Shown: in pieces, positions 4,707-24,019 of the stretch
Layout: each line of letters begins with the position of its first letter
Position numbering within the stretch: position 1 is the first letter of the stretch
Assembly: GCA_963771005.1 (NCBI GenBank)
Contig: CAVYRO010000008.1
Coordinates: forward strand, 762,102 to 826,101
From: an uncultured Bacteroidales bacterium
GTDB lineage: Bacteria > Bacteroidota > Bacteroidia > Bacteroidales > GCA-2748055
Reading direction: 5' to 3'
Length of the DNA stretch: 64,000 nt
Translations under genes and position numbers: made by a program
The notes under the pieces: model-generated
Seen by the model: the letters and a program-made list of their open reading frames with translations, nothing else
What the model was told of the DNA's origin: nothing
Database searches by the model: none

Positions 4707-4979
4707 TTATTGAACAGCGTCACCCAGTTCGCTGCCTGCTTTAAATTTAACCACTTTTTTAGCACCAATGGTAATGGGAGCACCAGTTTGAGGATTTCTA
4801 CCGGTTCTTGAGTTTCTACCCGTAACTGAGAATGAACCAAAACCTACCAGTGCAACGCGATCACCTTTTTTGAGGGCACCGGTTGTAGTTTTAACGAAAG
4901 CATCCAAAGCTCTTTTAGCATCAGCTTTTGTCAGATTAGCCTCGGCAGCAATTGCATCGATTAATTGTGCTTTGTTCAT
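4707..4979 (-). CDS. hup: HU-family DNA-binding protein
   Basis: 90 aa: [11 protein letters not shown]...[27 protein letters not shown], the canonical HU/IHF fold signature. Confidence 0.95.
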
Positions 4980-5027
4980 AATAAAAAATTTTTAGGGTTA
5001 GTAATCATTAAAGTGTCAAATCGTATA

Positions 5028-5058
5028 CAAATATAGAGTATTTCTGATGTTTAGCAAA
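5028..5058 (-). promoter_or_regulatory. Bacteroidota-type sigma-A promoter for hup (-33 TTTG, -7 TAnnTTTG)
   Basis: The minus strand has TTTG (5058..5055), exactly 19 nt, then TATATTTG (5035..5028). This is about 48 nt upstream of the hup ATG. It matches the published Bacteroides consensus and spacing. Confidence 0.55.
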
Positions 5059-5235
5059 TTTCGGGGTAAAAAAATGCGGTTTTGTTGATAAAAGGACCGA
5101 TTTCTACCGGAAAAAGGGCTTAAATGCCGGTCTGACTGGTGTTGCGAAGGAATTATGAGGGCAAAAACAGAGTTGCGGGATCGGGAATCGAGATTATGAT
5201 TGTGAAGGAAATTAATAGGAGTTTAGGAGGAATTT

Positions 5236-5369
5236 GGTGATTTGGTGATTTGGTGATTTGGTGATTTGGTGATTGGTGAGAGGAAGAGGAAGAGGAAGAG
5301 GAACACGGATTTGACGGATTTGTGCGGATAATCACGGAGCTAATCTGTGATAATCTGTGAAATCTGTGG
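5236..5369. repeat. Intergenic short-word tandem repeats (ggtgattt x5; gaggaa x4; acggatt words; aatctgtga x3)
   Basis: Read directly: ggtgatttggtgatttggtgatttggtgatttggtgatt, gaggaagaggaagaggaagaggaa, cacggatttgacggatttgtgcggataatcacgg, taatctgtgataatctgtgaaatctgtgg. Confidence 0.9.
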
Positions 5370-5427
5370 TTAAACTCCCGGAATCCACCTGAGAAACCAT
5401 CTCAAACCATCTTCAATTAAACCCGCG

Positions 5428-5558
5428 GTGTTCTACATTCATGTTGCGCACCTACGGAGCGCTGGGACGCGCATTCATATTAAGCTATCGATATCAGCCA
5501 CCTACGGAGGCTTCCCGAACAAACTATCTGATTATTCGAACCTGAAACAACATCAAAC
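5428..5558 (+). repeat. Conserved 131-nt 'head' element, copy A (noncoding; candidate structured RNA or recombination/mobile-element end)
   Basis: Aligns to the reverse complement of 23740..23871 with 4 substitutions plus one t/ac length change. It contains two GC-clamped hairpins with the identical loop ACCTACGGA. Confidence 0.85.
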
Positions 5559-6006
5559 CATTCAAACCATTTCAAACCATCTCAAACCATTTCAAACCAT
5601 TTCAAACCATCTCAAACCATCTCAAACCATTTCAAACCATTTCAAACCATTTCAAACCATCTCAAACCATCTCAAACCATTTCAAACCATTTCAAACCAT
5701 CTCAAACCATCTCAAACCATCTCAAACCATTTCAAACCATTTCAAACCATTTCAAACCATTCAAACCATCTCTCAAACCATTTCAAACCATCTCAAACCA
5801 TTTCAAACCATCTCAAACCATTTCAAACCATTTCAAACCATTCAAACCATTTCAAACCATCTCAAACCATTCAAACCATTTCAAACCATCTCAAACCATT
5901 CAAACCATCAAACCATTTCAAACCATTTCAAACCATTTCAAACCATTTCAAACCATCTCAAACCATTTCAAACAATCCTCAAACAATCCTCAAACCATCT
6001 GAAACC
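5546..6006 (+). repeat. 10-bp tandem array A, about 46 units (ttcaaaccat / ctcaaaccat)
   Basis: The direct tandem decamers are visible as column-aligned text in the sequence. There are occasional 7-9-nt units, and the last units change to caaacaatcct. Confidence 0.95.
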
Positions 6007-6010
6007 TATT

Positions 6011-8797
6011 CTAAAATTTCCTTTTAGACACTTCATACTCCATTTCCTGATATCCGATTTCGCCTTTGTCTGAAATTGCTTCGATTACAACTTCCATTTT
6101 TCCCGTATAGTCAGCATTGTAAAATGAAGTGGAAGCCTTGCCCAAATTGTCGACCCTAAGTTTAGGCTCCCAGTGCACCAGGGCACGTAAATCCGGTTTA
6201 AACCAGTCTTCCGTCTTAAGATTTGGGTACTTCGGTTCATAAAATTCACGGGATGCAGAGAACACCGGAACAGCGGTTTTCAGGATACCTATGGTACGTA
6301 TAACCCCGGAAAGCCCTTTTCCTGCATACGTATATATTGCAATAACATTCCCTGTTTTTGAACCCGGCTCAAGCAACCAATTCATATAATTTTCAGGAAG
6401 TACTTTACTATAAAGCTCTCTAAAATTTTTGGCATTCTCAATTACTTCGAAACTTTTGACTTCACCGGGTGGGATGTTTGGAATGAGCGGGTAGTCATCA
6501 AACATAACCGGGATCCCGTCAATCACAATAAAGGTAGGGTCGGGATTATTCGCCCAGGCGTATAAAGTACCATCCGAATCTCTTATTATTCTCACTTTGT
6601 CAGGGAAATTGAATAAAAGGACGCTGTATAAGCCATACGACCATTTTTCTTCTCTTGCCTGAATGGTTTCTCCCTCGATAACTTCATCCGGCTTGCCGTA
6701 CTCATCAGCCATTTTCTTTCTTGCAGGGGTCATATTGTAACCCTGAACCGTTACTTCATCCAAAAAAATAGTCCCTTTTGATAAGGGAAAGGCTTCATCC
6801 ACCTTTTTACGTTCAATGTTCTTTTCAACAAAGGCATCGACCACACTGTCGGGTTTTTCTATTGAATTGACATGGTTAAAAGAAATCGCCGGTGATTCTT
6901 TTTTATCCAGTGTGATGGTACATTCTTTTTTCTTACCGGCCTTATTCGTACTCTGGATCATAATGTTCACGTTCTGTCCGTATTCATCATTCACATCAAA
7001 ACTAAACCTGCCCAGGCTGTCCACCTTTTCCACCTGAACCGAATGGTTATGCCCAAAAGTCATCAGGGTTAACTCTATATCATTTTTCCGCTTTTCCCGG
7101 TTAATTGCCTCCTTCACTGTTCCTGTGACGGTAAGCATGGCCTCAGGTGGGTACCTGATCCTATCCCTCGGATGGGTGTAATTGTACTTTCGCCAACCCT
7201 GGGTAAGTAACAGAGCGTCCAGGTCGCTGAAACGGTCTTCATCCTGAGCGAAATAATACCCGGGATTTTCAATATCCCCTTTTAAATCGGAATTCACCAG
7301 GAAATACGACAATATGTGTTGGCGTGTATCCTGCATTTCTCCCATTTGTGCTTTGTTCAGCACAAGCACCGATACGTTGGCGTTTACCGGATTTCCCGCT
7401 TTATCCGTGGTTTCAATAGCAAGTTTGGTCGGCTCGCGCTGTTCGTAAATATCCTTGTCGGATGAAATTGCAATATTGATCCGGCTTTCCGGCCTCTCAT
7501 TAAAATAGAGCCTCTCTGCAACGGGTTCCATTTGTTTGTTCATCATGGTAAAGGCAATGATGCCTTCCGGCAGCGAATTTGAGGGCAGCAAAAACGCCAG
7601 GTTACCTCTGTCTGGGTGGCCTTTTATGCTGTAGTAAGCAACTCCCCGGCAGGAGGCCCAAATCGTTATGCTGTCATTTTGCTGGTCGTTCGAAGAAGCC
7701 TTCACACTTATCCTGTTCCCGTCCTTTCTAACAGACAATACATTTCCTTTGAGAGCAACCTTGGGCAGAGGATACATTTTTGAAATCCCTTTTTCCGGAA
7801 CAGGCATAAGCCTCGCTGAGTAAATTGCATTGGGATCCGCATCGGTTATCGTAAAAGTTCCCATACCCAATTCATTGCTCTTGAACAAGGTGATCACCTC
7901 ACCTCTCCCGTTGACGATTTCACCTTCCACTTTCCTCCCCTTACCGCTGTAGTCCAACGCTTTGAAGCCGACCACACTTTGTAATCCCTGAACCAGTTCC
8001 CCGCTTTCAGGGAAAAATTGCAAATCGAGGTAATCTTTATCCAGTACGATCGTTTTGGAAAAACTCAAATGGTTTTTTGTCTCCATTTGAAGTGTGACAA
8101 ACCGGCAGGTATCCGGCAGAGCATAATTTAGCAGGTATTGATCCTCCTTGTTTTTCATTATGGCGATCGTATCTCTCCTGTCCTCGAAAGACAATATCAG
8201 AGTCAGGGCCTTTTTGTGAAGGCTGTCGATCGCAAAAGGGTTTAGCGTTGCCTCAAGACGGCGTTCCTGGCTCGGCTCCCTGACCAGCGTAACATTTGCT
8301 ATCGGGGTTGGTTTTGGATAGGTCGTAGATGCAAATACCCGGATATACTCCTTATAGAAAAAGTCGTTCCCGAAATTTTTATCCCATTGCGTATAAGCCC
8401 TGACCAGGTAAGTTCCTTCGATATAATTTGGTTGTAGCTGAAAAAAACCGTCTCCAATTCCCTTTTCAAGCTTGACTATTTTTTTTTCAACGATGCTTTC
8501 ATCGGGACCGATCAATTCCACATAAAGTACACCGCTTAATCCAGTGGGGACATGGTCGGCAGCACCGGCAACAATTGCCTTGAACCAGATGCTTTCATCC
8601 GTAGTGTAGGCCTTGCTGTCCAGTTGCAGGTAGATTTTCTCGGCCAAAGAAGCATTCGGGAACAGGTGGGAGGGCTGTGCCAAACACGGTATTGTCAGGA
8701 TAACAGGCAGGATCAATACTAAGAACTGCTTTCTTCGAAGGCGATATTTCGGATGAATGGTTTTCATTCCCGATTTTATACAGGTTCCGGGTCCCAT
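6011..8797 (-). CDS. Large exported protein, function unknown; macroglobulin(MG2)-like N-terminal region and a TonB-plug-like segment
   Basis: 928-aa intact ORF. The start is more likely the ATG at 8767 (MKTIHPKYRLRRKQFLVLILPVILTIPCLAQ signal peptide). The domain guesses come from residue patterns only, e.g. LDEVTVQGYN...FIVIDGIPV. Confidence 0.6.
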   Translation of the reverse strand: MGPGTCIKSGMKTIHPKYRLRRKQFLVLILPVILTIPCLAQPSHLFPNASLAEKIYLQLDSKAYTTDESIWFKAIVAGAADHVPTGLSGVLYVELIGPDESIVEKKIVKLEKGIGDGFFQLQPNYIEGTYLVRAYTQWDKNFGNDFFYKEYIRVFASTTYPKPTPIANVTLVREPSQERRLEATLNPFAIDSLHKKALTLILSFEDRRDTIAIMKNKEDQYLLNYALPDTCRFVTLQMETKNHLSFSKTIVLDKDYLDLQFFPESGELVQGLQSVVGFKALDYSGKGRKVEGEIVNGRGEVITLFKSNELGMGTFTITDADPNAIYSARLMPVPEKGISKMYPLPKVALKGNVLSVRKDGNRISVKASSNDQQNDSITIWASCRGVAYYSIKGHPDRGNLAFLLPSNSLPEGIIAFTMMNKQMEPVAERLYFNERPESRINIAISSDKDIYEQREPTKLAIETTDKAGNPVNANVSVLVLNKAQMGEMQDTRQHILSYFLVNSDLKGDIENPGYYFAQDEDRFSDLDALLLTQGWRKYNYTHPRDRIRYPPEAMLTVTGTVKEAINREKRKNDIELTLMTFGHNHSVQVEKVDSLGRFSFDVNDEYGQNVNIMIQSTNKAGKKKECTITLDKKESPAISFNHVNSIEKPDSVVDAFVEKNIERKKVDEAFPLSKGTIFLDEVTVQGYNMTPARKKMADEYGKPDEVIEGETIQAREEKWSYGLYSVLLFNFPDKVRIIRDSDGTLYAWANNPDPTFIVIDGIPVMFDDYPLIPNIPPGEVKSFEVIENAKNFRELYSKVLPENYMNWLLEPGSKTGNVIAIYTYAGKGLSGVIRTIGILKTAVPVFSASREFYEPKYPNLKTEDWFKPDLRALVHWEPKLRVDNLGKASTSFYNADYTGKMEVVIEAISDKGEIGYQEMEYEVSKRKF

Positions 8798-9230
8798 AAT
8801 TTTTAGGATTGATGATCTTTACCTGTTAATTTCTATAATCCTCAGTTTGCATTCTTCGCAGAGCTATCCCCTAAACGTCGGGAGCTTGGGAAGGCCTATA
8901 TACATATTACTGGGTATTCCAATTTAATCATCGTTTCTGATAAAATTTGCCAGATTAAAATAAAAATTTTAAAATTTCCGTCACAGGCCGCAAATTCCCT
9001 GGCCTGTGCCTTTATGTGATGGGGCTTCAGCCCAAAGAGATTCACCGGCGTTCATAGTCTCCATCCCTGTATTTACCTCCTCAAAAACTTGAATCTACTA
9101 CTTTCTACGCTCTACCTGATTGATGATATCTGCAAAAAATCAATCCCATCAATCTTCCATCAAACATCCTCACCTCTCCTCTTATCATTCAAAAATTAAA
9201 AGCCGCCATTTTCAATTAAAAAAAATATAG

Positions 9231-9238
9231 TACTTTTG
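9231..9238 (+). promoter_or_regulatory. Candidate -7 box (TACTTTTG = TAnnTTTG) for tRNA-Ser
   Basis: The motif ends 5 nt before the first tRNA base. The -33 position has only TTTC, so support is partial. Confidence 0.35.
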
Positions 9239-9243
9239 CGCCC

Positions 9244-9330
9244 GGAGGAATGGCAGAGTGGTCGAATGCGGCGGTCTTGAAAACCGTTGTCCGCTTGCGC
9301 GGACCGGGGGTTCGAATCCCTCTTCCTCCG
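9244..9330 (+). tRNA. tRNA-Ser (anticodon UGA), class II with long variable arm
   Basis: Hand-folded cloverleaf. Acceptor GGAGGAA/UUCCUCC, D stem GCA/UGC, anticodon stem GCGGU/ACCGU with loop CUUGAAA. Variable arm GUCCGC-UUGC-GCGGAC, T arm GGGGG-UUCGAAU-CCCUC. CCA is not encoded. Confidence 0.95.
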
Positions 9331-9356
9331 CTTGATTAGTTCGCAGTATTTTGCAA

Positions 9357-9390
9357 AAGCCTGAAATCAGTCTGATTTTCAGGCTTTTTG
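9357..9390 (+). terminator. Rho-independent terminator after tRNA-Ser
   Basis: gcctgaaatcag / ctgattttcaggc stem followed by TTTTT. Confidence 0.7.
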
Positions 9391-9735
9391 CACTTCCAAT
9401 AAACCATATTCTTTATATCTCACTAATGGAATATTATTCATGAATAGTCCTGTATATATCCCGCTTCAACAACCCCTTATTTATTATATTACTAAGGATC
9501 AATATCTTACATAATTCCTGATAATTTATTAATGGAACTCAAATGACTATCCATGGTTCAATGCTGGTTAAGAAAGACAGATGAATTGACGACATTTTCA
9601 AGAGTCATCAATTGGTTTGTAATTTAAGGTCTGGAGGTGAGAATAAAATAAATCCCTGCACCATTGTACAAGAGGTAAAAAAATTCCACAGAAACTCGGA
9701 GTTCAAAAGTAAGTGCATCTTTTCAGCAAATTTTT

Positions 9736-9813
9736 TGTATTGCAATACATATTTTTATCGAATTTTTTGTATTGCAATACATAATTTCGCCGGATTTATT
9801 GTATTGCATTACA
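9736..9813. promoter_or_regulatory. Three copies of the 14-bp palindrome TGTATTGCAATACA at exact 32-bp spacing (operator- or iteron-like array)
   Basis: Perfect palindromes lie at 9736..9749 and 9768..9781. A one-mismatch copy (TGTATTGCATTACA) lies at 9800..9813. Each is embedded in a ~32-bp AT-rich direct repeat unit. Confidence 0.5.
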
Positions 9814-10164
9814 ACTTTTTCGGATCTTTTCTGAGAAGGCATCGCATTTTTCAGGATCTTCGTCAGGCCCGAACTGATAATTGATGACTGTCAGAACGAT
9901 CTCATTTCATTACCGGAGAGTGGTAATCATTCTTCTTTTGATCTATTTTCCGGCGTATTCTGAAGAAATTTTATCTTACTTTTTTTTCCCCATATACCAT
10001 ATCAGTCTCGTTTTTTCGAAAAATTTCATATCTTCATATTTCGAAAAAGTTTAGTTTACGGTGGAAGCAGAGATAAACTGCCAACGGAGTCATCGCAAGC
10101 TGCCTCGTAAATGACCCTGTGTAGCCTGAAAATACAGGGAATCTGGTAACCGTTTATACTGCCT

Positions 10165-11617
10165 ATGAGACACTTCGTCCTGCCCATGCTGTGTATGGTC
10201 TGCATCACTGTTTCCGGACAGGCCCAGGATCATCATGATTACAACCGGGAATTTTCCGAAGTCGTAAAAACATATAATGCATTCGCCTTGAAGCCTCTCA
10301 AGGCCGGATTCTGCGACTCTTCAAAGTTCAAATCCGATCTGATCCATGCGCTGGATCCCGGGCAGGTGATCTTCAGTGCATCCGATATCCTGAAGATCAG
10401 GAAGACAGATCCCCTCACCTTTCTGGACCCATCAGGTTCGTACAACCTGGAAAGAGGGAACCTTGTCAATATATATACAAGGAGCCTGGAGAGCTCTTTA
10501 GAGATCCTCTGTGAACTGGATACACTAAAGCCCAGTCTCCTGAAAGCCGATTCCACCCTGAATCCTTACACCTGGGATGAGGACTATTATTCCAGGGATA
10601 AAAAGGAGAGATGGCAGGCGCTGCTCAAATATAAATTACTCAATAATCTTTATGATAAGACAAGAAGAGATTCAACCGGGCTTACTGCCGATATTCCCGA
10701 CAGTTCCCTGATGAATGTTCTTTACATGATCACCCGGACCGAAAAGAAAACGCTGATGGATATTCTCAAGAGCAAACAGGGACCGGAACGAAAGGTTTTC
10801 GATGCTTACGCGAACAGTATGTTGTTGCAGGCCGATCCGCACAGCTCCTATTTTTCACAGGAAAGTTTCACGGATTTCAGGGATCACCTGTCTTCACAGT
10901 CGATGTCATACGGCATAAAGCTTGAACAGAAACCGGATGGCAGGTTTGTGATCGCGTCCATTCTTCCCGGCAGTTATGCCTGGAAAAAAGGACAAATCCG
11001 GGTTGGCGACGTTATCACGAAACTCGGCATCCCGGGATCCCAATCGATGGAGCTGGATTTCGCAGAGTACAGGGACATCAGCGATTATATCGGAAACCCG
11101 GAACCTTCGGAACTGACGCTGACGATCCTTGATGGATCGGGAAACCCCAAAGAAATTACATTTCCCCGGGAAGAGAATGCTGAAAGAGAGAATTCGGTGA
11201 GAGCCTATGTTCTGAATGGCCCCAAACGGGTGGGATATATTGTCCTGCCGGCATTTTGAAGAGCTTAAAAAACGATCCGCAGAAAGGGTGGATACCTGCA
11301 GAAAATTCAGGGAGATCAGCCGGATTGACAGTATCGGCATCGGTTATCTGAAGAAATATACCTTCATTCCGCTTCAACTTGAAAAATTCAAAGCCGGCAA
11401 AGATGAGCAGGAAATGCTCATCAATGAGATCAATGCCCTTGCATCGGACAGCACCAGGAATTTTACGGTCGAGAACATCAGGGCGGACCAGCGCATGATC
11501 AGGATGAGTGAATATCACGCAGACTTCCTGAGACAAGAATCCGGATCCCTTCTATCCGATCCTTATCTAGAGGAAACCTGGTTCATTCTTACGGATTACC
11601 TCGAATTAAATAAATGA
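10165..11617 (+). pseudogene. Decayed tail-specific (C-terminal processing, S41, Prc/Tsp-like) peptidase lacking the catalytic domain
   Basis: ORF 10165..11259 has the Prc-like N-domain and PDZ: DPHSSYFSQESFTDF...GIKLEQKPDGRFVIASILPGSYAWKKG...RVGYIVLPAF. It then stops. The C-terminal tail (DPYLEETWFILTDYL) continues in another frame (11216..11617). No DLRxNGGGS or catalytic Lys motif is present in any frame. Confidence 0.6.
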
Positions 11618-12678
11618 TCAAAACCATGAATACATGTAAAGATTTTATGCTCATTATCCTGCCTCTGGTCCTTATCAATGCATCACCATCAGCGCTTGAA
11701 GGACAGAGTCCCGCCGAAGCCGTTGCATATATGAATGTCATCGACGGTCAATACCAAAACATCCGCAATGATACCTGGGATTATACCAGTACCATGGCGC
11801 ACAGCCGGAGTGCAAGGAAAGTCGAAAAAAAACGGGCCGATCTAATGAAGACCATTCAAAAGTCCATCCAGGTGGTCAGGCACCTGCCTGCATTCAACAA
11901 TGATATTTCACTCCGGGATTCGACCCTTGCATACCTGAAGATGAATTTCTATATCCTGAACAACGATTTTGCAAAGATCATCGATATGGAGGAGGTGGCC
12001 GAACAATCATACGACCTGATGGAAGCTTATCTCCTGGCTCAGCAGAAGGCAGGTGAAAAACTGCAGGCTGCATCGTCCGTCATCGATGAGCAGTATAAGT
12101 CATTTGCCGGCAGGTACGGGGTGAACCTGATCGAAAGTCACGACCATGTTACACAAAACCTCGAAAAAGCAAATGAAGCGCTTACCTATTACAATAAGAT
12201 TTATCTCATCTTCTTTAAAGCCTACAAGCAGGAAGCATACCTGATCGAAGCCATGAATAAAAAGGAAGTCAGCGCCATAGAACAGAACCGGAATGCATTG
12301 TCGGTATTTTCAGATGAGGGTCTTCAGAAACTGGACAGTATTCCAAATTTTAAAGCGGATAATTCGCTTCATACGACATGCAGTAAGATGCTGACCTTTT
12401 ATAAGGAAGAAGCTGATCAGAAAATCCCGGTTATCTCCGATTTTATGCTAACTGCCGCCGGTTATGATAAGATGGTTGCACTATTCAACGCGAAAGACAA
12501 AGAGCTTTTAACCCAGGATGAGGTGAACGAATATAATAATACGTTAAAAGAATTCAAGAATGGAATAAGTCAATTTAACAGTACAAACAATTACCTGAAT
12601 TCGAGGCGAAGTAGTTATACCACGAGCTGGAATAATTGCGTAAACTCATTTATGGCGAGGCATATACCTCAAAAATAA
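11614..12678 (+). CDS. Exported alpha-helical protein of unknown function (354 aa)
   Basis: Intact ORF whose ATG overlaps the preceding stop (ATGA). Hydrophobic N-terminus. No family motif recognised. Confidence 0.6.
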   Translation: MIKTMNTCKDFMLIILPLVLINASPSALEGQSPAEAVAYMNVIDGQYQNIRNDTWDYTSTMAHSRSARKVEKKRADLMKTIQKSIQVVRHLPAFNNDISLRDSTLAYLKMNFYILNNDFAKIIDMEEVAEQSYDLMEAYLLAQQKAGEKLQAASSVIDEQYKSFAGRYGVNLIESHDHVTQNLEKANEALTYYNKIYLIFFKAYKQEAYLIEAMNKKEVSAIEQNRNALSVFSDEGLQKLDSIPNFKADNSLHTTCSKMLTFYKEEADQKIPVISDFMLTAAGYDKMVALFNAKDKELLTQDEVNEYNNTLKEFKNGISQFNSTNNYLNSRRSSYTTSWNNCVNSFMARHIPQK

Positions 12679-13116
12679 TATAGGGATGAAATGGATTTAA
12701 GTGATTAATTCCTGTATTTCATTTATAATTTGGATTGAAAGAATTTTTAGGATATCCATATTGAATTAATCCTTAAATCCTTATAATCAGGTAAATCAAG
12801 ATTCGGACATTTATTCATGTTTTTTAGCTCTCCCTTTTTATCCTTCTCATTTTATTCTTAGATTTACTTCAGTCCGGGACAGCCGTTTAACAGGAATGCC
12901 GGAAGACTGATAAGAAATCTTCGACCATTGTTTGCGGGTGGTTTGGGAATCGGCATAGGAATCGGACTACCACGCGGCGGATCTCCTCCCCGGATCTGGG
13001 ATGAAGGTGGGATTGCCATATAATTTCCTGATAATTTCAGGATCATGCAGATAGTAATGAAAGGTTAAACCTGGAACCTGGAACGCTTTACAGAATATGT
13101 AATTATAATCATTAAG

Positions 13117-14700
13117 ATGAAATTCAAAATAATTCTTCTGTTGCTTATTTTCCCGGTCTTCGGTTCGCAGGCGCAGGAGTATGAAAAGTATATTACAGAA
13201 CTGGAATCTGTTCTTGATGACAAAAGTACCTATATCCAACAACGGGAAGAACTTATTCAGCAGAAAAAGGAGGAACTTCATATCTTTGAATCTTCAAAAG
13301 AATTTGAAAAACAGATTCAATTATGCCTGCAATTGGTTTATGAATACCAATCCTATATTTATGACTCGGCCCAACACTACATAAGTCAGGCGAAGAAAAT
13401 TGCTTACCAGTCGAATAATAAGTCTTTGATAGCACATGTTAAAACCAGGGAGGGATTCGTGTTGCTGTCTTCAGGGCTTTTTAAGGAAGCAGTTGATACC
13501 CTGACTTCAGTCCATCCGGAATTTTTAAGTGATTCATTAAAGAGTAATTTTTTTTCCACACTTGCCCGGGCATATTACGATCTGGCCGATTACGGGCGTG
13601 ATCCCGTTTTCATGCCGGAATACATCTCGAGGGGGAATACCTACCTGGACAGTGCTTTGCTATTTGTTAAACCAAACACCAATGAATTCTGGGCAATAGA
13701 AAGCCTGCAGAGAATGAAAAAGTCAGACTGGAGCGGAGCCAAGTTCGCATTTCAATACTGGATGAATAATTTCGATCTTCCCAGACATTACAGCGCTATT
13801 GCTACCTCAAGTTTAGCTTATATCTATGATATGACAGGGTTCACCGACCTCGCCATTGAATATTTTGCCAGGGCAGCCATTGCTGATGTAAAAACGGCTA
13901 CAATGGAAACGGTGGCTTTACGGAACCTGGCTACCCTGTTATTTCAGAAAGGTGAAGAAAAGAGGGCGTACCGTTTTATTATTGAAGCATTGAATGATGC
14001 TTCCTATTACAATGCCAAGCACCGGAAACTGGAAGCCGGACATATATTACCAATTATTGAAGGTGAACGGATAAATGTAATAAAGAATCAGCGCGACCGT
14101 GTACTTATATTCACCGTTTTCATTTCGGTCCTGTTGGTTGCGTTGATTGTGGCTCTTATCATCATCTGGATATCTTTTAAACGGCTGAATGCTGCGCGTC
14201 TTGCTGTTCAGGAGTCGAATGAAAAGCTTAAGGAAGCAAACAAAATCAAGGATGAATACATTGCCTTGTTTTTCAACCAGAACTCCGAATATATTGAAAA
14301 AATCGAACGCTTGCAGAAATGGGTTAAACGGAAGGTGGCAGCAAACCAATTCGAAGGACTGAAGAAACTCTCCCAGAATATAAGCGTTGAGAAAGAAAGG
14401 ATAGCACTGTATGAACAATTTGACCAGATCTTTTTGAAACTGTTCCCAAATTTTACGGAAGAATTTAATAATCTCCTCAAACCGGATGAACGAATTCACC
14501 TAAATGATGGTCATCTGATGAATACGGACCTCAGAATTTATGCATTAATTCGCCTTGGGATCAATGACAATGAAAAAATAGCCAGTTTCCTGAATTACTC
14601 CGTCAATACGATATATACGTATAAAACGAAAATTAAAGGAAAAGCCAACTGTCCTTCAGATCAGTTCAAGAAGAAAGTGATGGAAATCAAATCGATCTGA
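13117..14700 (+). CDS. DUF6377-type PUL regulator (N-terminal signal, TPR-like sensor region, one TM helix, coiled coil, C-terminal HTH)
   Basis: 527 aa. Conserved stretches as I remember them for this family: AIADVKTATMETVALRNLATLLFQKGEEKRAYRFIIEALNDASYYNAKHRK, the TM segment VLIFTVFISVLLVALIVALIIIWI, and the C-terminal LRIYALIRLGINDNEKIASFLNYSVNTIYTYKTKIK. Confidence 0.75.
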   Translation: MKFKIILLLLIFPVFGSQAQEYEKYITELESVLDDKSTYIQQREELIQQKKEELHIFESSKEFEKQIQLCLQLVYEYQSYIYDSAQHYISQAKKIAYQSNNKSLIAHVKTREGFVLLSSGLFKEAVDTLTSVHPEFLSDSLKSNFFSTLARAYYDLADYGRDPVFMPEYISRGNTYLDSALLFVKPNTNEFWAIESLQRMKKSDWSGAKFAFQYWMNNFDLPRHYSAIATSSLAYIYDMTGFTDLAIEYFARAAIADVKTATMETVALRNLATLLFQKGEEKRAYRFIIEALNDASYYNAKHRKLEAGHILPIIEGERINVIKNQRDRVLIFTVFISVLLVALIVALIIIWISFKRLNAARLAVQESNEKLKEANKIKDEYIALFFNQNSEYIEKIERLQKWVKRKVAANQFEGLKKLSQNISVEKERIALYEQFDQIFLKLFPNFTEEFNNLLKPDERIHLNDGHLMNTDLRIYALIRLGINDNEKIASFLNYSVNTIYTYKTKIKGKANCPSDQFKKKVMEIKSI

Positions 14701-14864
14701 GAAAGAGAAAGAGGAAGAGGAACACGGATGATACGGATCTATACGGATTTACACGGATTTATAAGTATCGCGCAAGAGGAATACGGATGATTCGGGTTTT
14801 CGCAGATTTGTTAAGCGATAAATCAACAAATCAACAAATCAACAAATCAACAAATCAACAAATA
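14701..14864. repeat. Intergenic short-word repeats (aagaggaacacggat, acggat words, atcaacaa x5)
   Basis: gaaagaggaagaggaacacggatgatacggatctatacggatttacacggattt ... aaatcaacaaatcaacaaatcaacaaatcaacaaatcaacaaat. It starts immediately after the stop of 13117..14700. Confidence 0.9.
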
Positions 14865-14871
14865 AAAAAGG

Positions 14872-16845: not shown

Positions 16846-17120
16846 AACCGGGAAATTTTCGTAATTCAGAAAACCGAAATTACGAATAGATCTGAAAATT
16901 TCTAAATGCCTGCTTTTCAAACTATGGCTTTACCTCCTTCCCAGGGGTATTTTGGTTGAATTTACCTCTTTTAAATCTATATTTTTCCGCCTCTGATTAA
17001 AACTATAATGTTGATTCACTGTTATTTATACAACAAGCACATCTATATTATCCTTAAAATTTACTTTTTGCTGTCTTAAACTCCCTATTTTTATGCTATT
17101 CATTCACTAAATGTAAACTT

Positions 17121-17945
17121 ATGAAAAAATTTACTTTGATTGCCGCATTATTATTAATGATCGCGGTGATTTCAAAATCACAAACACTTAATAATCCAAA
17201 AGACGCCGATGGCTACTACATTGTTAAGTGGGACTGTTCTACCGATTCTTTTGCAGCTTCAAATGACATTGAAGCAGATGAAACTTTCACATTTGCCGTT
17301 GATGTCACCGGAACTCCCTTTGAAGACTGGTTAAAAGAAACCCCTACTGCCGCGGGTGCAACACGAGCCCTGGCTATTAACAAGTGGACAAATTTTGGCG
17401 ATGTGAGCGGTGGAACCAACCGTTTGAAGCAAATAAAAGAGAATATTTATGGCGCTACCTGGAATATTATTCAGATGGCCTCGACCATGAATGTTGAATC
17501 GGCCACCGGAACTGACTCCGTAGTTTATATCTACGGTCAGGTTTTCGGTTTTGAATATACAGCGGATAATCCGGGCGCAGGATGGTGGATGTGGCCTGAA
17601 GGGGTTGCGGAAGGTACGGCCATCGATCCCGGTACTGGTGCTATATTTAAAACTCTAGCCTATACAGGTACCAAAACCAGCCCTGAGATCTGGAGTGATG
17701 ATGTTGAAGGGGGCTTGTTCTTCTCCAATAATACACCGGAGAAAGGATATGGTCTGCCATGCGCATTATCTACAGGTGTTTCCAAAGTTTTCAGGAGTGA
17801 AGCTGAAATCGTTGGTCATGAATACTATAATGTACTGGGAGTAAGGCTGCCGATAGCACCAAAGAAAGGTTTTTATATTCACCGGATATTGAGATCTGAC
17901 GGCACCTCAGAGGTAGTCAAAGAGTTCAAACTCATTGATCAGTAA
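17121..17945 (+). CDS. Secreted protein of unknown function with probable T9SS C-terminal sorting domain
   Basis: 274 aa. Signal peptide MKKFTLIAALLLMIAVISKSQ. The C-terminus YYNVLGVRLPIAPKKGFYIHRILRSDGTSEVVKEFKL resembles type-A T9SS CTDs. Confidence 0.6.
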   Translation: MKKFTLIAALLLMIAVISKSQTLNNPKDADGYYIVKWDCSTDSFAASNDIEADETFTFAVDVTGTPFEDWLKETPTAAGATRALAINKWTNFGDVSGGTNRLKQIKENIYGATWNIIQMASTMNVESATGTDSVVYIYGQVFGFEYTADNPGAGWWMWPEGVAEGTAIDPGTGAIFKTLAYTGTKTSPEIWSDDVEGGLFFSNNTPEKGYGLPCALSTGVSKVFRSEAEIVGHEYYNVLGVRLPIAPKKGFYIHRILRSDGTSEVVKEFKLIDQ

Positions 17946-17962
17946 GCATTGCCTGTTACAGG

Positions 17963-17998
17963 AAAGCGAGGTATACCGGCTTCGCTTTTCTTTTCCTC
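17963..17998 (+). terminator. Candidate terminator between 17121..17945 and susC-like gene
   Basis: aaagcga / tcgcttt stem (17963..17969, 17982..17988) followed by the T-rich tcttttcctcttc. Confidence 0.4.
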
Positions 17999-18033
17999 TT
18001 CAAACCGTTTAGATCGCTTTACAACCTATTTTC

Positions 18034-21258: not shown

Positions 21259-21264
21259 CAAAGT

Positions 21265-21343
21265 AAAGGCGAAAGGAGAAAGGCGAAAGGCGAAAGGGCC
21301 CTCGGAGAGGCAAGGAGAAAGGAGAAAGGCGAAAGGCGAAAGT
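21265..21343. repeat. Hexamer/heptamer word repeat (gaaagg / cgaaagg) in two ~33-bp direct halves
   Basis: aaaggcgaaaggagaaaggcgaaaggcgaaaggg ... caaggagaaaggagaaaggcgaaaggcgaaagtgg. It lies in the susC-susD intergenic spacer. Confidence 0.9.
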
Positions 21344-21442
21344 GGAGGAATAGGACCAGGGGGGTGATGAACGGAGCTGGAGAGAATAAACAAATAAACA
21401 TATCTGAAAAGCGAAACTTTATTAGATGACAAAGTAAGCAAT

Positions 21443-23299
21443 ATGAAAAAGGCCATATATATTATCCTGATAATGTCATTTGCGGGTTGCAAGGATTTCT
21501 ATGAAATTTCGAACCCGCAGACCCTGTCGACCGATAATTTTCCGGCTACGATTGATCAGGTAGATCTGGTCCTGACTTCGAGTTATGCAGGCCCCTACGG
21601 AATCGGACTTTATTCGTTTTACTGGTTTCCCATGGGGATCTATTTGTTTGATCATACCACCAATACCTATGGATCCTACGACGAACGTGGCACCCAGATG
21701 GATAATTACACGGACCTCAACAGCCGGTATACCACGCAGATGTATGTTGATATTTGCAAATGGGCAAATTTGTCGACCACAGCCATTGAGGCAATAGATC
21801 ACTACGAGGAAACGAATGCAAAAACAGAGGAAATGGAGCAACTCGGTTATATGCGGGGCCAGGCTCTTTTCAACCGTGCCCTTGCCTACTGGCATGCACA
21901 GCTGTTTTTCGAAATTGATCCTGAGGGTCTGGGTTTCCCTATCTTCGATGTGGTGGCAACCGACCTGGAGGGTATGAAAAGGAAACGAGCTACGGTAACA
22001 GACACATGGGATTTTGTCATAAATGACCTCGAGACAGCCATCCCTCTCTTAACCGGCCATCATGACAAATACCGCGCCTCTGAATGGGCGGCTAAAGGCT
22101 TACTGGCAAAAGTATATATGCAGTCGCTTTCTATTTTTCCGGAAAACAAGAATAAGGCTGCAGACCTCCTGGAGGATATCATTAATAACAGCGGTAAACA
22201 GTTGGTCTCCCCTGAAATTTACCAGGATATGTTTTACGGAAATGTACTGAATGAATTCAATTCTGAATCCCTGTATGAACTCAGCATGACTACGAACTGG
22301 AATCAGAACGGTCCATGGGCGGGTTATACAACCGGCAGTGGAATGCCCATGGTAATGGCTCCCTGGTATATGGATCTGACGATCCGTTTCAGGCCGGGTA
22401 TAGAAGGAGCCGTCGATCCTTTGACCCGGGAGCTGGATGTGATCACTTCGAAAAAGAGCAGCGAGTGGGGAAATAATTTCATTCATGATGCCAATATAAA
22501 ACGTTTTGGGTTCGAGGGAATTGATGGCGATACCGTACCCAGAAGGACGCTGAATCCTGATTATAACCCCTCTTTACCCCGTTCTGCAGATAATTATCCG
22601 TACAGGACACAGGATCCCGATTACCGTGAAAAGAGCCTCAACCTGAAAAATAACAAAGACCTCGTGGATCCGCGTTTAATGCTTTGTGCAGGCCAGCCGT
22701 ATGTGGATGAATATATCGACGACAAAGGCAATAGAACATATTACGACAGGTCGCTGGAAGTAAACAACCGCCCCGATCTTATAACCTGGCAACACCGTAA
22801 ATTCACGAATATTCGCGGTGTTGAAACCGGACCTGCTCCTTATGGGAAAAACGAAAGCAGCGATGCGAATTATCCGGTAATCCGGCTTGCAGATATTTAT
22901 CTTCTCTATGCTGAACTGATAAAGGATGATAATCCTTCCCTGGCATTGGAATATATAAATAAAGTCCATAGAAGGGCGTATGGGTATTCACCGGATTCGC
23001 CCAGCCCATACGATTATGCCAGCCTGAACGATCGCACCAAAACTGCCGGGGAGAATGATCATCTTGCGAACGATGTTCTTAAGTATGAACGCTGGGCAGA
23101 GCTGTTTGCAGAAGGACAGTGGTGGTGGGATGTAAGAAGATGGAAGATAGGCCCGGCAGAGGCAGATTTTTATGTTGAAACCAGGCATGGAGACATAACC
23201 TGGAAAGGCGATGAATCTTATGTCCAGCCTATTCCGCAACTGGAGCTGGAAAGAAATGAAAATATTCAGCAATCCAGGGGATATCCGGGGGTTAGGTAG
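21443..23299 (+). CDS. SusD/RagB-family nutrient-binding outer-membrane lipoprotein (PUL 1)
   Basis: 618 aa. Lipoprotein signal ILIMSFAGCKD. TPR-like SusD pattern (RALAYWHAQLFF, RLADIYLLYAE, RWAELFAEGQWWWDVRRW). Positioned directly after the susC-like gene. Confidence 0.9.
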   Translation: MKKAIYIILIMSFAGCKDFYEISNPQTLSTDNFPATIDQVDLVLTSSYAGPYGIGLYSFYWFPMGIYLFDHTTNTYGSYDERGTQMDNYTDLNSRYTTQMYVDICKWANLSTTAIEAIDHYEETNAKTEEMEQLGYMRGQALFNRALAYWHAQLFFEIDPEGLGFPIFDVVATDLEGMKRKRATVTDTWDFVINDLETAIPLLTGHHDKYRASEWAAKGLLAKVYMQSLSIFPENKNKAADLLEDIINNSGKQLVSPEIYQDMFYGNVLNEFNSESLYELSMTTNWNQNGPWAGYTTGSGMPMVMAPWYMDLTIRFRPGIEGAVDPLTRELDVITSKKSSEWGNNFIHDANIKRFGFEGIDGDTVPRRTLNPDYNPSLPRSADNYPYRTQDPDYREKSLNLKNNKDLVDPRLMLCAGQPYVDEYIDDKGNRTYYDRSLEVNNRPDLITWQHRKFTNIRGVETGPAPYGKNESSDANYPVIRLADIYLLYAELIKDDNPSLALEYINKVHRRAYGYSPDSPSPYDYASLNDRTKTAGENDHLANDVLKYERWAELFAEGQWWWDVRRWKIGPAEADFYVETRHGDITWKGDESYVQPIPQLELERNENIQQSRGYPGVR

Positions 23300-23320
23300 G
23301 AGATTTGGAGGACGGTTTTG

Positions 23321-23402
23321 TTTAAGGATTGTTTGAGGTTGTTTGAAATGGTTTGAAATGGTTTGAAATGGTTTTTAAGAGGAACACGGATTTGACGGAT
23401 TT
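23321..23402. repeat. Mini decamer array (gtttgaaatg x3 plus variants) followed by the 26-mer aagaggaacacggatttgacggattt
   Basis: The units are the reverse complement of the array-A unit. The 26-mer at 23377..23402 is identical to 5296..5321. Confidence 0.9.
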
Positions 23403-23404
23403 AG

Positions 23405-23430
23405 ACGGATTCCGATGGCTATCGGAACGG
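23405..23430 (+). repeat. 26-bp direct repeat, left copy (acggattccgatggctatcgGaacgg)
   Basis: Matches 23870..23895 at 25 of 26 positions. The two copies bracket array B plus head B. Confidence 0.9.
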
Positions 23431-23750
23431 GTTTAATGGTTTGAAATGGTTTGAAATGGTTTGAAATGGTTTGAGAAGGTTTGATGTTGTTTGATGTTGT
23501 TTGATGTTGTTTGATGTTGTTTGATGTTGTTTGATGTTGTTTGATGTTGTTTGATATTGTTTGATATTGTTTGATATTGTTTGATGTTGTTTGATGTTGT
23601 TTGATGTTGTTTGATGTATGTTTGATGTTGTTTGATGTTGTTTGATGTTGTTTGATGTTGTTTGATGTTGTTTGATGTTGTTTGATATTGTTTGATATTG
23701 TTTGATGTTGTTTGATGTTATTTGATGTTGTTTGATGTTGTTTGATGTTG
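23431..23750 (-). repeat. 10-bp tandem array B, about 32 units (plus strand gtttgatgtt / gtttgatatt; first units gtttgaaatg)
   Basis: The column-aligned decamers are visible in the text. One 11-nt unit near 23611 shifts the register. Confidence 0.95.
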
Positions 23751-23871
23751 TTTCAGGTTCGAATGTATCAGATGGTTTGTTCGGGAAGCCTCCGTAGGTG
23801 GCTGATATCGATAGCCAAATATGAATGCGCGTCCCGGCGCTCCGTAGGTGCGCAACATGAATGTAGAACAC
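23740..23871 (-). repeat. Conserved 132-nt 'head' element, copy B (inverted relative to copy A)
   Basis: The reverse complement aligns base-for-base with 5428..5558 (see copy A). Confidence 0.85.
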
Positions 23872-23895
23872 GGATTCCGATGGCTATCGTAACGG
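23870..23895 (+). repeat. 26-bp direct repeat, right copy (acggattccgatggctatcgTaacgg)
   Basis: See 23405..23430. It overlaps the last 2 nt of head B. Confidence 0.9.
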
Positions 23896-23992
23896 ATTTT
23901 GACGGGTGATCACGGATGGAATTGTTTGATGATGTTTGAGAAGTTGTTCGGGGATTTTTTTTGTTTAAACCACTTATACCCTTCGAAAGGCA

Positions 23993-24019
23993 CCCCCCTC
24001 GCTCTTCAGGAGAGGGGGG
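23993..24019. repeat. GC-rich hairpin (cccccct / agggggg) of the REP type common in Bacteroidota intergenic DNA
   Basis: 7-bp C/G stem with a 13-nt loop, followed by ccgggggggtgagg. Confidence 0.45.

What the first reader, a model, noticed from the sequence alone, without database searches (positions are those of the whole stretch)
5546..6006. Decamer arrays (about 46 and 32 units) with helical-turn periodicity and two-state unit polymorphism
Seen directly: array A alternates irregularly between ttcaaaccat and ctcaaaccat. Array B (23431..23750) alternates between gtttgatgtt and gtttgatatt, in runs such as 7 G-type, 3 A-type, 3 G-type.

The unit sequence differs between the two arrays except at their head-distal and head-proximal ends. 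The heads, by contrast, are ~95% identical. The arrays therefore evolve fast, probably by slippage or unequal exchange, next to a constrained head.

Every unit carries an AAA/TTT tract phased at 10 bp. By established A-tract physics this predicts intrinsically curved DNA (inference). Every unit also places TTTG, the Bacteroidota -33 promoter word, once per turn on one strand.

A period of 10 is not a multiple of 3, so the arrays are not coding.
Basis: partly seen in the sequence, partly recalled or inferred. Interest (0 to 1): 0.5.

Follow-up and report, generated by a model that had tools for sequence, protein, structure and literature searches.

The report
Orphan repeat arms filling intergenic gaps
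The two 10-base arrays are real, non-coding and fast-changing, but they are just two of about 330 such arrays in this genome; these arrays form the outward-facing "arms" of gene-less mosaic repeat elements between genes, and they are not special curved-DNA or promoter devices.

Summary
Both arrays exist as described: A has about 46 units and B about 31. The flanking ~126-nt heads are ~95% identical.

They are not a local oddity. The genome holds 584 period-10 tandem arrays and about as many 8- and 9-mer arrays, together ~7% of intergenic DNA. Another part of this genome was already flagged by this scan (e1-3611907, e1-3611913).

New here:
1. **Polarity rule.** Reading away from the nearest gene, an array always reads GTTTG (58:0 within 30 bp). 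Within a gap, GTTTG arrays never follow CAAAC arrays (0 of 200). A is therefore a right arm and B a left arm of dyad-symmetric elements.
2. **Link to small genes.** The same decamer brackets a decayed four-helix-bundle (23S-rRNA-IVP/Avd-like) gene in this genome and an intact one on a metagenome contig. Of 30 IVP genes across Bacteroidia, 29 carry short word arrays at their ends.
3. **The head.** It is a REP-like hairpin doublet, and the same doublet flanks an IS200-type Y1 transposase gene.
4. **Array length.** Sister heads 98% identical carry about 46 versus about 12 units, so arrays change length quickly.
5. **Curvature and promoters.** The commonest unit is predicted straight, and no array contains a full Bacteroidota promoter.

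The parts
4707..4979 (-). HU-type DNA-binding protein gene; left boundary of the intergenic gap that holds array A
   Evidence: Pfam Bac_DNA_binding, 117.8 bits
5028..5058 (-). Only full Bacteroidota promoter consensus in the window (TTTG-N-TAnnTTTG); it serves the HU gene and lies outside the repeats
   Evidence: Pattern search, 1 match in 64 kb
5232..5279 (+). ATTTGGTG x6 array, a left-arm type word. The same 8-mer brackets an intact IVP gene elsewhere in the genome
   Evidence: TRF; IVP gene at G000:C6:91862 flanked by this word and its complement; 8-mers obey left/right polarity, p = 3e-24
5305..5340 (+). CACGGATT-type words (left-arm orientation)
   Evidence: polarity of this word family
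5341..5380 (+). AATCTGTG words (right-arm type). These are the arm words of a PDDEXK_3 (GxxExxY) gene cassette. The left/right switch point of the element lies at about 5340
   Evidence: PDDEXK_3 gene at G000:C4:134150 bracketed by CACAGATT ... AATCTGTG
5425..5550 (+). Head A: REP-like doublet of two small hairpins with the shared loop ACCTACGGA, plus a 3' tail of decayed decamers
   Evidence: About 10 copies in the genome; the same doublet flanks a Y1_Tnp gene; compensatory stem variants
5553..6006 (+). Array A, about 46 units of CAAACCATYT. It is the right arm and ends 5 bp from the stop codon of the next gene
   Evidence: polarity rule
6011..8797 (-). 928-aa gene; right boundary of the gap. 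Its C-terminus is unchanged relative to orthologues that have no array downstream
21443..23299 (+). SusD-family gene; left boundary of the gap that holds array B
   Evidence: Pfam SusD_RagB and SusD-like_3
23318..23374 (+). Degenerate and then regular GTTTGAAATG units starting about 20 bp after the SusD stop codon (outer part of the left arm)
23405..23430 (.). Hairpin module (TTCCGATGGCTATCGGAA core); a second copy lies at 23870-23895. It is a common module, not a target-site duplication
   Evidence: 25 of 26 identical; about 90 copies genome-wide
23439..23753 (+). Array B, about 31 units of GTTTGATRTT (left arm). Its unit is the head-proximal unit type, expanded
23754..23880 (-). Head B, the inverted copy of head A

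Best explanation
Arrays A and B are non-coding, expandable "word" arms of gene-less, dyad-symmetric mosaic elements that occupy the gaps between genes in this genome.

The elements are built like small-gene cassettes found across Bacteroidia. In those cassettes a short gene, of the four-helix-bundle IVP/Avd-like or the PDDEXK_3/GxxExxY family, sits between tandem arrays of a short GTT-containing word on its left and the complementary AAC-containing word on its right. In this species the arms have multiplied without the gene. A is a right arm abutting the stop codon of the 928-aa gene. B is a left arm abutting the stop codon of susD.

Once in place, an arm grows and shrinks by slipped-strand mispairing or unequal exchange, involving one to a few units at a time. 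That process produces the length differences between sister copies and the mixture of single-base unit variants.

The head is a separate module: a REP-like hairpin doublet related to the sequences that flank an IS200-type Y1 transposase gene. It has been copied about 10 times together with a few array units, and these then expanded independently.

Shown: abundance, intergenic location, polarity, length differences between paralogues, the head's link to the Y1 gene, and the IVP link of the decamer word in two places. Inferred: the cassette origin of these two arrays, slippage as the length-change mechanism, and the absence of a host function.
For: - **Family size.** There are 584 period-10 arrays, 518 of period 8 and 244 of period 9. 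Of 334 CAAAC chains, 330 are intergenic. Short-period arrays cover 1.18% of the genome and about 7% of intergenic DNA.
- **Polarity.** Arrays within 30 bp of a gene boundary read GTTTG away from the gene in 58 of 58 cases, and in 83 of 88 at 30-100 bp. After stop codons of genes of 750 nt or more the ratio is 69:1. In 200 gaps the orientation strings are G (98), C (85) and GC (17), never CG. The rule holds in all four gene-orientation classes. It also holds for the 8-mer and ACGGATT words.
- **Same rule elsewhere.** In other genomes and metagenomes, reading the table for arrays within 60 bp of a gene gives 13 that obey and 1 that does not.
- **Cassette link.** IVP and PDDEXK_3 genes in this genome are each bracketed by inverted word arrays. 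An IVP pseudogene at G000:C4:137610 lies between GTTTG and CAAAC decamer arrays. Metagenome contig L051 has an intact IVP gene (115 bits) embedded in decamer arrays that include both A-type and B-type units. Of 30 IVP loci from 401 Bacteroidia genomes, 29 have short-period arrays at the gene ends. Array coverage is 21.5% within 160 bp of the gene against 1.2% further away, and 12 of 20 two-sided cases are inverted.
- **Fast length change.** Head pairs 98.4% and 97.6% identical carry about 46 versus about 12 units and about 31 versus about 4 units. A three-unit block (29 bp) is repeated inside A. Congeneric orthologues of the 928-aa gene have no array downstream.
- **Head.** A Y1_Tnp gene (72 bits) is flanked by the same hairpin doublet. 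The hairpin occurs with at least 5 compensatory stems, and the exact 15-mer core occurs 68 times.
Against: - Only 1 of 200 array-bearing gaps in this genome holds any IVP remnant, and regions A and B hold none. The cassette origin of this particular decamer therefore rests on two loci plus the general architecture.
- Most external decamer arrays stand alone, without a small gene.
- The IVP-flanking words in other genomes are mostly 7-mers, not 10-mers.
- The polarity could instead come from selection (see rival 1).
- No terminal inverted repeat, target-site duplication or empty site was identified, so how arms spread is unknown.
Confidence: 0.58

Rival explanations
1. The arrays are ordinary microsatellite-like or MITE-like insertions with no cassette ancestry, and the polarity is a product of selection. 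The GTTTGAAATG strand carries ATG and TGA in every unit, so it has stop codons in all three frames. It is therefore harmless, or even protective, just after a gene, but harmful in a 5' leader because each unit forms a mini upstream ORF. The CAAAC strand has no start or stop codon, so it is tolerated upstream of genes, but it would extend a protein if the array encroached on a gene's 3' end.
For: This predicts the same geometry in all four gene-orientation classes. Polarity is absolute close to genes and disappears beyond 200 bp. The CAAAC strand is open in all frames, as the 199-aa spurious ORF shows. In a Lewinellaceae genome the array itself supplies the stop codon of the upstream gene. 199 of 200 gaps have no cassette gene.
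Against: A ratio of 58:0 behind intact native stop codons requires very strong selection against a sequence that lies after the stop. In array A the native C-terminus is intact. Inner arrays more than 250 bp from both genes still keep the single G-to-C order. Several IVP-cassette arm words have no stop codon in either orientation yet keep the GTT-left/AAC-right layout.
Confidence: 0.16
2. One reading: the arrays are intrinsically curved DNA and/or phased promoter words, kept because they shape local chromosome architecture or transcription.
For: The wedge model predicts 17 degrees per turn for B and 12-14 for A. That is above the 95th percentile (9.6) of random 200-mers from the window. Every unit carries TTTG on one strand.
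Against: The commonest unit genome-wide is predicted nearly straight at 5 degrees per turn. Units of 8, 9, 11 and 12 bases break the phase in A. Words of period 7, 8 and 9 behave the same way. No TAnnTTTG occurs inside the arrays, and the HU gene has its own promoter outside them. Sigma-70-like and terminator-like hits are at chance level. Arrays are absent at the orthologous locus in congeners, so no conserved role is needed there.
Confidence: 0.06
3. The arrays act at the RNA level. Because of the polarity, 3' untranslated regions carry (GGUUUGAAAU)n, which could bind a single-strand-binding regulator or protect or destabilise the transcript. A comparable role has been proposed for TAACTGA heptamer repeats.
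For: The orientation relative to the upstream gene is strictly fixed within 60 bp of stop codons (94:2). The variable positions are transitions (A/G on the GT-rich strand) in both arrays. Published precedent exists for short direct repeats with a patchy distribution that includes Bacteroidetes (PMC4679880).
Against: The same geometric rule holds at gene starts, where the transcript would carry the opposite strand. There is no Rfam match. The unit has no stable self-structure, and the head does not fold better than shuffled sequence. No expression data could be obtained.
Confidence: 0.07
4. The head and array form one mobile unit, with the head as leader and the array as minisatellite as in the BrickBuilt MITE. 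The Y1 transposase moves it, and the arrays exist because of the head.
For: All head copies are followed by CAAAC-type units in the same relative orientation. Five of the 10 copies cluster within 140 kb. A Y1 transposase gene with related hairpins is present.
Against: Only 3 of the 14 arrays with 20 or more units, and about 10 of some 330 arrays in all, are near a head. The longest arrays (105, 96 and 57 units) have none. Head 5' boundaries differ between copies. The 26-bp 'bracket' around B is a module with about 90 copies, not a target duplication.
Confidence: 0.08

Closest known systems
BrickBuilt, a MITE with an internal minisatellite in Porphyromonas gingivalis (PMC4596501)
   Same: A Bacteroidota element that is strictly intergenic, multi-copy, species-limited and non-coding. 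It is built as a leader, a tandem short repeat without spacers, and a tail. Copy number of the repeat differs between copies.
   Different: BrickBuilt has one 23-nt unit, 19 copies and defined small inverted ends. Here there are hundreds of arrays of several word lengths (7-10 nt) combined as modules, no defined terminal inverted repeats, a strict outward polarity, and most arrays have no leader.
REP / REPIN sequences with their RAYT (Y1 HUH) transposase; BIME-type mosaics
   Same: The head is a short extragenic hairpin with compensatory stem variants. It has tens of copies, some in tandem clusters, and a Y1 transposase gene is flanked by the same hairpins in inverted orientation.
   Different: This applies to the head, not to the decamer arrays, which have no dyad within the unit. 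The transposase scores below the NCBIfam RAYT model cut-off (18.5 against 80) and just below the IS200 model cut-off (52.9 against 55). GTAG lies in the loop, not at the foot of the hairpin.
TAACTGA heptamer direct repeats (Beggiatoaceae, Cyanobacteria, some Bacteroidetes; PMC4679880), and cyanobacterial STRR heptamers (from my own knowledge)
   Same: Short words in head-to-tail intergenic arrays, with arrays of up to tens of copies. Distribution across phyla is patchy, suggesting horizontal spread with no known mechanism. This genome also has CAACTGA/TAACTGA arrays beside an IVP gene.
   Different: Those are 7-mers, mostly just upstream of start codons. No link to small-gene cassettes and no polarity rule was described in that paper.
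Intervening sequences of 23S rRNA genes that carry an IVP gene between inverted repeats (from my own knowledge, not tested here)
   Same: The same protein family (PF05635) sits between inverted flanking repeats.
   Different: Those lie inside rRNA genes and are cut out of the RNA. Here the arms are tandem word arrays in ordinary intergenic DNA and are mostly gene-less.

Membership tests
MITE with internal minisatellite (BrickBuilt-like) | Multi-copy, non-coding, strictly intergenic | tested here: met
   330 of 334 arrays are intergenic. There is no protein-family hit above cut-off for the array ORFs.
MITE with internal minisatellite (BrickBuilt-like) | Defined terminal inverted repeats and a target-site duplication | tested here: inconclusive
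   No fixed termini were found, and head 5' boundaries vary. The 26-bp direct repeat around B is a module with about 90 copies. No empty site was available.
MITE with internal minisatellite (BrickBuilt-like) | Leader plus tandem repeat plus tail as one unit | tested here: not met
   Only 3 of the 14 arrays with 20 or more units have a head nearby, and about 10 heads serve some 330 arrays.
REP/REPIN-RAYT (applies to the head) | Short extragenic hairpin in many copies with conserved structure | tested here: met
   The exact 15-mer core occurs 68 times. Stems TGCC/GGCA, GCGC/GCGC, AGCC/GGCT, CGCC/GGCG and GGCC/GGCC surround one shared loop.
REP/REPIN-RAYT (applies to the head) | A Y1 HUH transposase gene flanked by the same hairpins | tested here: met
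   The ORF at G000:C6:75425-75883 scores 72 bits for Pfam Y1_Tnp, with doublets on both sides in opposite orientation.
REP/REPIN-RAYT (applies to the head) | The transposase belongs to the RAYT subfamily | tested here: not met
   NCBIfam REP_Tyr_transpos scores 18.5 bits against a cut-off of 80. The IS200 model scores 52.9 against 55.
A-tract intrinsically curved DNA | A-tracts of 4 or more bases in phase with the helical repeat, giving net curvature | tested here: inconclusive
   The tracts are only A3/T3. The wedge model (parameters from memory, validated on the A4T4/T4A4 contrast) gives 5 degrees per turn for the main unit, 23 for the C variant, 17-18 for B units, 12-14 for real A and 17 for real B. 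No experiment was done.
Bacteroidota promoter | TTTG (-33) plus TAnnTTTG (-7) at about 19-21 bp spacing | tested here: not met
   There is one match in the window, at 5028-5058, outside the arrays.
Phase-variable simple-sequence contingency locus | Repeat tract inside a reading frame or between promoter elements of the controlled gene | tested here: not met
   A and B start 5 bp and about 20 bp after stop codons. A lies more than 490 bp from the HU promoter.
Small-gene (IVP / GxxExxY) cassette arms | Tandem word array on the left and its reverse complement on the right of a small gene | tested here: met
   This applies to the decamer word as a class: the IVP pseudogene at G000:C4:137610 and the intact IVP gene on L051. 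The general rule holds in 29 of 30 IVP loci.
Small-gene (IVP / GxxExxY) cassette arms | A cassette gene or its remnant present between the arms at this locus | tested here: not met
   There is no IVP or PDDEXK_3 similarity in 4980-6010 or 23299-24255 (all E > 0.1). A and B are orphan arms.
CRISPR array | Repeats separated by unique spacers | tested here: not met
   The units are head to tail with no spacers.

The most novel reading that the evidence does not exclude
The word arrays, nearly all of which contain GTT on the left arm and AAC on the right, may be iterated recognition or crossover sites of an undescribed mobilisation system for small-gene cassettes (Avd-like four-helix-bundle IVP genes, GxxExxY nucleases). 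That system is widespread in Bacteroidia. On this reading the genome's hundreds of decamer arrays are its amplified empty arms. The fixed outward polarity would then reflect how the element is inserted, not selection, and array growth could be part of the mechanism and not simple slippage.
Probability: 0.2. Interest if true: 0.75.

Novelty: new variant of a known kind. Interest (0 to 1): 0.5.

Why it matters
For this finding, the result removes a tempting but mostly wrong reading (bent DNA, promoter words) and places the arrays in a genome-wide system.

More broadly, the strict polarity rule gives a concrete handle on an unexplained phenomenon. So does the near-universal presence of word arrays at the ends of IVP/Avd-like genes across Bacteroidia. 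The phenomenon is short "word" arrays with patchy phylogenetic distribution, such as TAACTGA and STRR repeats, for which no spreading mechanism is known. In the library I could search, no paper links the IVP family to such arrays.

In practice, these arrays break assemblies: two contigs of this genome end in them. They also create long spurious ORFs and inflate intergenic DNA. Annotators should mask them.

Tried and rejected
- **Known RNA families.** Rfam at gathering thresholds on the whole window gave only a tRNA. A permissive search of 5000-6100 gave nothing.
- **Structured head.** Folding either strand of either head is no more stable than shuffled sequence (z between -0.5 and +0.3). Hairpin support rests on compensatory stems only.
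- **Coding arrays.** ORFs 5428-6027 and 23419-23871 have no Pfam hit above cut-off.
- **Orientation relative to replication.** No consistent relation to GC skew or contig position was seen, and head copies occur in both orientations within 150 kb.
- **Strain or read comparison.**
  - The HU protein has no exact record elsewhere.
  - The head 37-mer is absent from metagenome contigs.
  - Congeners share only 68-73% amino-acid identity and lack the arrays.
  - The proposed VNTR test therefore could not be run, and paralogue comparison was used instead.
- **Target-site duplication around B.** The 26-bp repeat is a common module.
- **Telomere-like ends.** Arrays lie near two contig starts but not at the very ends. 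I read these as assembly breaks.
- **Specific kinship of IVP genes.** The C4 IVP pseudogene and the L051 IVP share only 37% identity, tied with another IVP copy, so no specific lineage link could be shown.
- **Cassette gene between ACGGATT-type arms.** None was found in this genome.
- **Literature search for the decamer strings.** No paper was found.
Full report
**Observation.** Tandem Repeats Finder reports 5553-6006 (period 10, 45.7 copies) and 23439-23753 (period 10, 31.4 copies). Array A has 22 CAAACCATTT and 13 CAAACCATCT units. Nine further units are 8, 9, 11 or 12 bases long, so the 10-bp phase is not strict. The 9-mers each lack one T of a T-run and could be homopolymer errors of a long-read assembly.

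Array B, read on the same strand as A, consists of AACATCAAAC units with blocks of AATATCAAAC, and it ends in A-type units. A begins with one B-type unit. The heads, 5425-5550 (+) and 23754-23880 (-), are 95-96% identical. A shuffled contig contains no chain of three such units, whereas the real contig has 83.

**The arrays are two of hundreds.** The window lies in a 6.1-Mb, 10-contig genome. Running TRF on all of it gives 584 period-10 arrays, 518 of period 8 and 244 of period 9. The commonest decamer is the A-type unit. A stricter chain search finds 334 decamer arrays, and 330 of them are intergenic. Short-period arrays make up 1.18% of the genome and roughly 7% of its intergenic DNA. Gaps that carry them have a median length of 577 bp, against 187 bp for all gaps.

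A and B are the fourth and sixth longest arrays. The longest have 105, 96 and 57 units and have no head nearby. Arrays are over-represented between convergent genes: 9.6% of such gaps, against 3.2% of tandem and 5.8% of divergent gaps.

This scan had already described the mosaic repeat family on another piece of this genome (e1-3611907, e1-3611913). My work agrees with that description and adds to it.

**Distribution.** The exact three-and-a-half-unit pattern occurs 337 times in this genome. It is absent from all five congeners and from 34 of 35 other relatives searched. Among 185,579 species genomes it occurs in only 6 stretches: uncultured Bacteroidales, a Bacteroidota MAG, a Lewinellaceae MAG, a Mariniphaga MAG and a MAG labelled Proteobacteria. 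JGI metagenome records hold 17 stretches, with G+C from 34 to 58%.

The A/G (T/C) alternation of the unit is seen in those distant sequences too. It is therefore neither a sequencing artefact nor a local mutation. Orthologues of the 928-aa gene in two congeners (73% and 68% identity) end with the same C-terminal residues and have no array downstream. The expansion is specific to this species lineage.

**Polarity.** This is the main new result. An array near a gene boundary always has the strand that reads GTTTG running away from the gene.

| Distance to nearer gene boundary | Obeys | Violates |
|---|---|---|
| under 30 bp | 58 | 0 |
| 30-100 bp | 83 | 5 |
| 100-200 bp | 53 | 16 |
| 200-400 bp | 31 | 34 |
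| over 400 bp | 16 | 20 |

Restricting to genes of at least 750 nt, which are certainly real, arrays 4-60 bp beyond a stop codon are 69:1.

Along the plus strand, the 200 array-bearing gaps read G only (98), C only (85) or G then C (17), and never C then G. GTTTG arrays sit at a median relative position of 0.28 in the gap and CAAAC arrays at 0.72 (p = 2e-27). This holds in all four gene-orientation classes. Inner arrays hundreds of bases from both genes keep the single G-to-C order. The 8-mer ATTTGKTG and the ACGGATT words obey the same geometry.

In the sequences fetched from other organisms, my reading of the table for arrays within 60 bp of a gene is 13 that obey and 1 that does not.

The gaps are therefore dyad-symmetric structures, and the decamer arrays are their outer arms. 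A, at the right edge of its gap and 5 bp from a stop codon, is a right arm. B, starting about 20 bp after the susD stop, is a left arm. In gap A the left side carries ATTTGGTG and CACGGATT words and the right side AATCTGTG words and decamers, with the switch near 5340.

**What the arms belong to.** The genome has five PDDEXK_3 (GxxExxY) genes and six IVP (PF05635, four-helix-bundle, Avd-like) genes or remnants. Each is bracketed by a tandem word array on one side and its reverse complement on the other.
- One intact IVP gene uses the ATTTGTTG 8-mer seen at 5232-5279.
- One PDDEXK_3 gene uses the CACAGATT/AATCTGTG words seen at 5341-5380.
- A decayed IVP gene at G000:C4:137610 lies between GTTTGAAATG units and CATTTCAAAC units.

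On metagenome contig L051 an intact IVP gene (115 bits) is embedded in decamer arrays that contain both A-type and B-type units.

To see whether this is general, I searched 401 Bacteroidia genomes with that IVP protein. Of these, 146 have a homologue at E of 1e-15 or better. Of the 30 best loci, 29 have short-period arrays, mostly 7-mers, at the gene ends. Array coverage is 21.5% within 160 bp of the gene and 1.2% further away. In 12 of the 20 two-sided cases the arms are reverse complements within one mismatch per unit. By my count from the table, about 22 of 26 left-arm words contain GTT.

In this genome, however, only 1 of 200 array-bearing gaps holds any IVP remnant, and gaps A and B hold none. 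A and B are orphan arms. The cassette origin of this particular decamer is an inference from two loci plus the general architecture.

**The head.** It has about 10 copies, 88-100% identical, and five of them lie within 140 kb. Its core is two small hairpins with the same loop, ACCTACGGA, and different 4-bp stems. Genome-wide this hairpin occurs with at least five compensatory stem pairs. The exact 15-mer core occurs 68 times, partly in 54-55-bp tandem clusters.

The same doublet flanks, in opposite orientations, a 152-aa gene at G000:C6:75425-75883. That gene is an IS200-type Y1 transposase: Pfam 72 bits; NCBIfam IS200 model 52.9 against a cut-off of 55; RAYT model 18.5 against 80. Two further Y1 genes each have their own repeat family.

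The head is therefore REP-like. Its conservation is explained by recent copying at least as well as by constraint. It is not thermodynamically structured beyond chance and matches no Rfam family. The 3' 50 nt of the head look like decayed decamers. Heads were therefore copied with a few array units attached, and these then expanded on their own.

**Array dynamics.** Head A and the copy 6.8 kb upstream of it are 98.4% identical and share about 270 nt of upstream mosaic, yet they carry about 46 versus about 12 units. Head B and its closest relative (97.6%) carry about 31 versus about 4 units of the same unit type. This comparison of paralogues stands in for the strain comparison I could not make.

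The long arrays mix the main unit with one or two single-base variants at positions 8-9 of the unit: T/C, T/A, or T versus CACTT, depending on the array. By a runs test the mixing is random in A (z = 0.6) and in two other long arrays, and blocky in B (z = -2.4). A three-unit block is repeated within A. Array edges next to genes are more degenerate than the interiors. These features fit slipped-strand mispairing and unequal exchange of one to a few units, but the process itself was not observed.

I used a dinucleotide wedge model with Bolshoy-Trifonov parameters taken from memory. It reproduces the classic contrast: A4T4 curved at 22 degrees per turn, T4A4 straight at 1.6. Its predictions:

| Sequence | Degrees per turn |
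|---|---|
| CAAACCATTT (main unit) | 5 |
| CAAACCATCT | 23 |
| B units | 17-18 |
| Real array A | 12-14 |
| Real array B | 17 |
| Random window 200-mers (mean; 95th percentile) | 7.1; 9.6 |

B, and partly A, may therefore be bent. Curvature cannot explain the family, though, because its commonest unit is straight and its other words have periods 7-9.

TTTG is in every unit, but TAnnTTTG is in none. The only full Bacteroidota promoter consensus in 64 kb is the HU promoter at 5028-5058. Sigma-70-like and terminator-like hits are at chance level.

**Alternatives.** The strongest rival is selection. The GTTTGAAATG strand has ATG and TGA in every unit, and the other strand has neither. Selection on translation signals would therefore give the same geometry at both gene starts and gene ends. 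I rank it second for three reasons. A ratio of 58:0 behind intact native stop codons seems too strict. The order rule persists far from genes. Arm words without stop codons keep the same layout in IVP cassettes. The data do not exclude it.

**Literature.**
- BrickBuilt (PMC4596501) is the nearest described Bacteroidota element.
- TAACTGA repeats (PMC4679880) are the nearest described short-word arrays. That paper reports a patchy distribution including Bacteroidetes and no mechanism, and it does not mention IVP genes or inverted arms.
- No paper in the searchable library links the IVP family with heptamer arrays, and only seven mention the family at all. None contains the decamer strings.

**Verdict.** The arrays are ordinary members of an unusual, largely undescribed repeat system. 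The added value is the polarity rule, the IVP link and the identity of the head. How the arms spread remains unknown.

Noticed in passing
window 47191-47507: Eleven head-to-tail copies of a 29-bp unit (92% matches). This is a different kind of repeat from the word arrays.
   Followed up: no
window 24253-26261: The GH97 gene downstream of array B is split into two overlapping ORFs (24253-24576 with the GH97_N start; 24522-26261 with the rest). This is either a frameshift or an assembly indel.
   Followed up: partly
window 14699-14863 and 21265-21342: Further patches of the same mosaic: ACGGAT words and AAATCAAC x5.5 at 14.7 kb, and an AAAGGCG heptamer array x11.6 about 100 bp upstream of susD.
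   Followed up: no
window 9729-9820: An AT-rich 32-bp unit repeated 2.9 times, near the tRNA at 9244-9330.
   Followed up: no
G000:C6:74900-77800 (L013): An IS200-type Y1 transposase gene sits beside a small GIY-YIG gene. It is followed by about 100-bp tandem repeats that each carry the ACCTACGGA hairpin. Two more Y1 genes (G000:C8:90259, G000:C3:36648) each have their own private tandem repeat family.
   Followed up: partly
G000:C2:1668172-1669307, C3:519447-520157, C8:1489930-1491031: Tandem clusters of 13-20 copies of the REP-like hairpin at 54-55-bp spacing.
   Followed up: no
G000:C10:464652 region (L038): An IVP gene is flanked by GAAAGG-type arms and by a long CTGACAA/CTGATAA array. That array is the TAACTGA-type heptamer repeat published for Beggiatoaceae, Cyanobacteria and a few Bacteroidetes (PMC4679880).
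   Followed up: partly
L064-L093 (30 Bacteroidia genomes): 29 of 30 IVP (PF05635) genes carry short tandem word arrays directly at both or one of their ends, usually 7-mers with GTT on the left and AAC on the right. I found no description of this in the searchable literature.
   Followed up: partly
L051 and L041: In other organisms the decamer arrays are followed by arrays whose unit contains GCGAAGC, a heptamer known (from my own knowledge) to form an unusually stable DNA mini-hairpin.
   Followed up: no
window 5425-23880: Heads A and B are inverted copies 18 kb apart, around a tRNA and a polysaccharide-utilisation locus. Recombination between them would invert the segment. This is the subject of another note (e1-2224363).
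   Followed up: no
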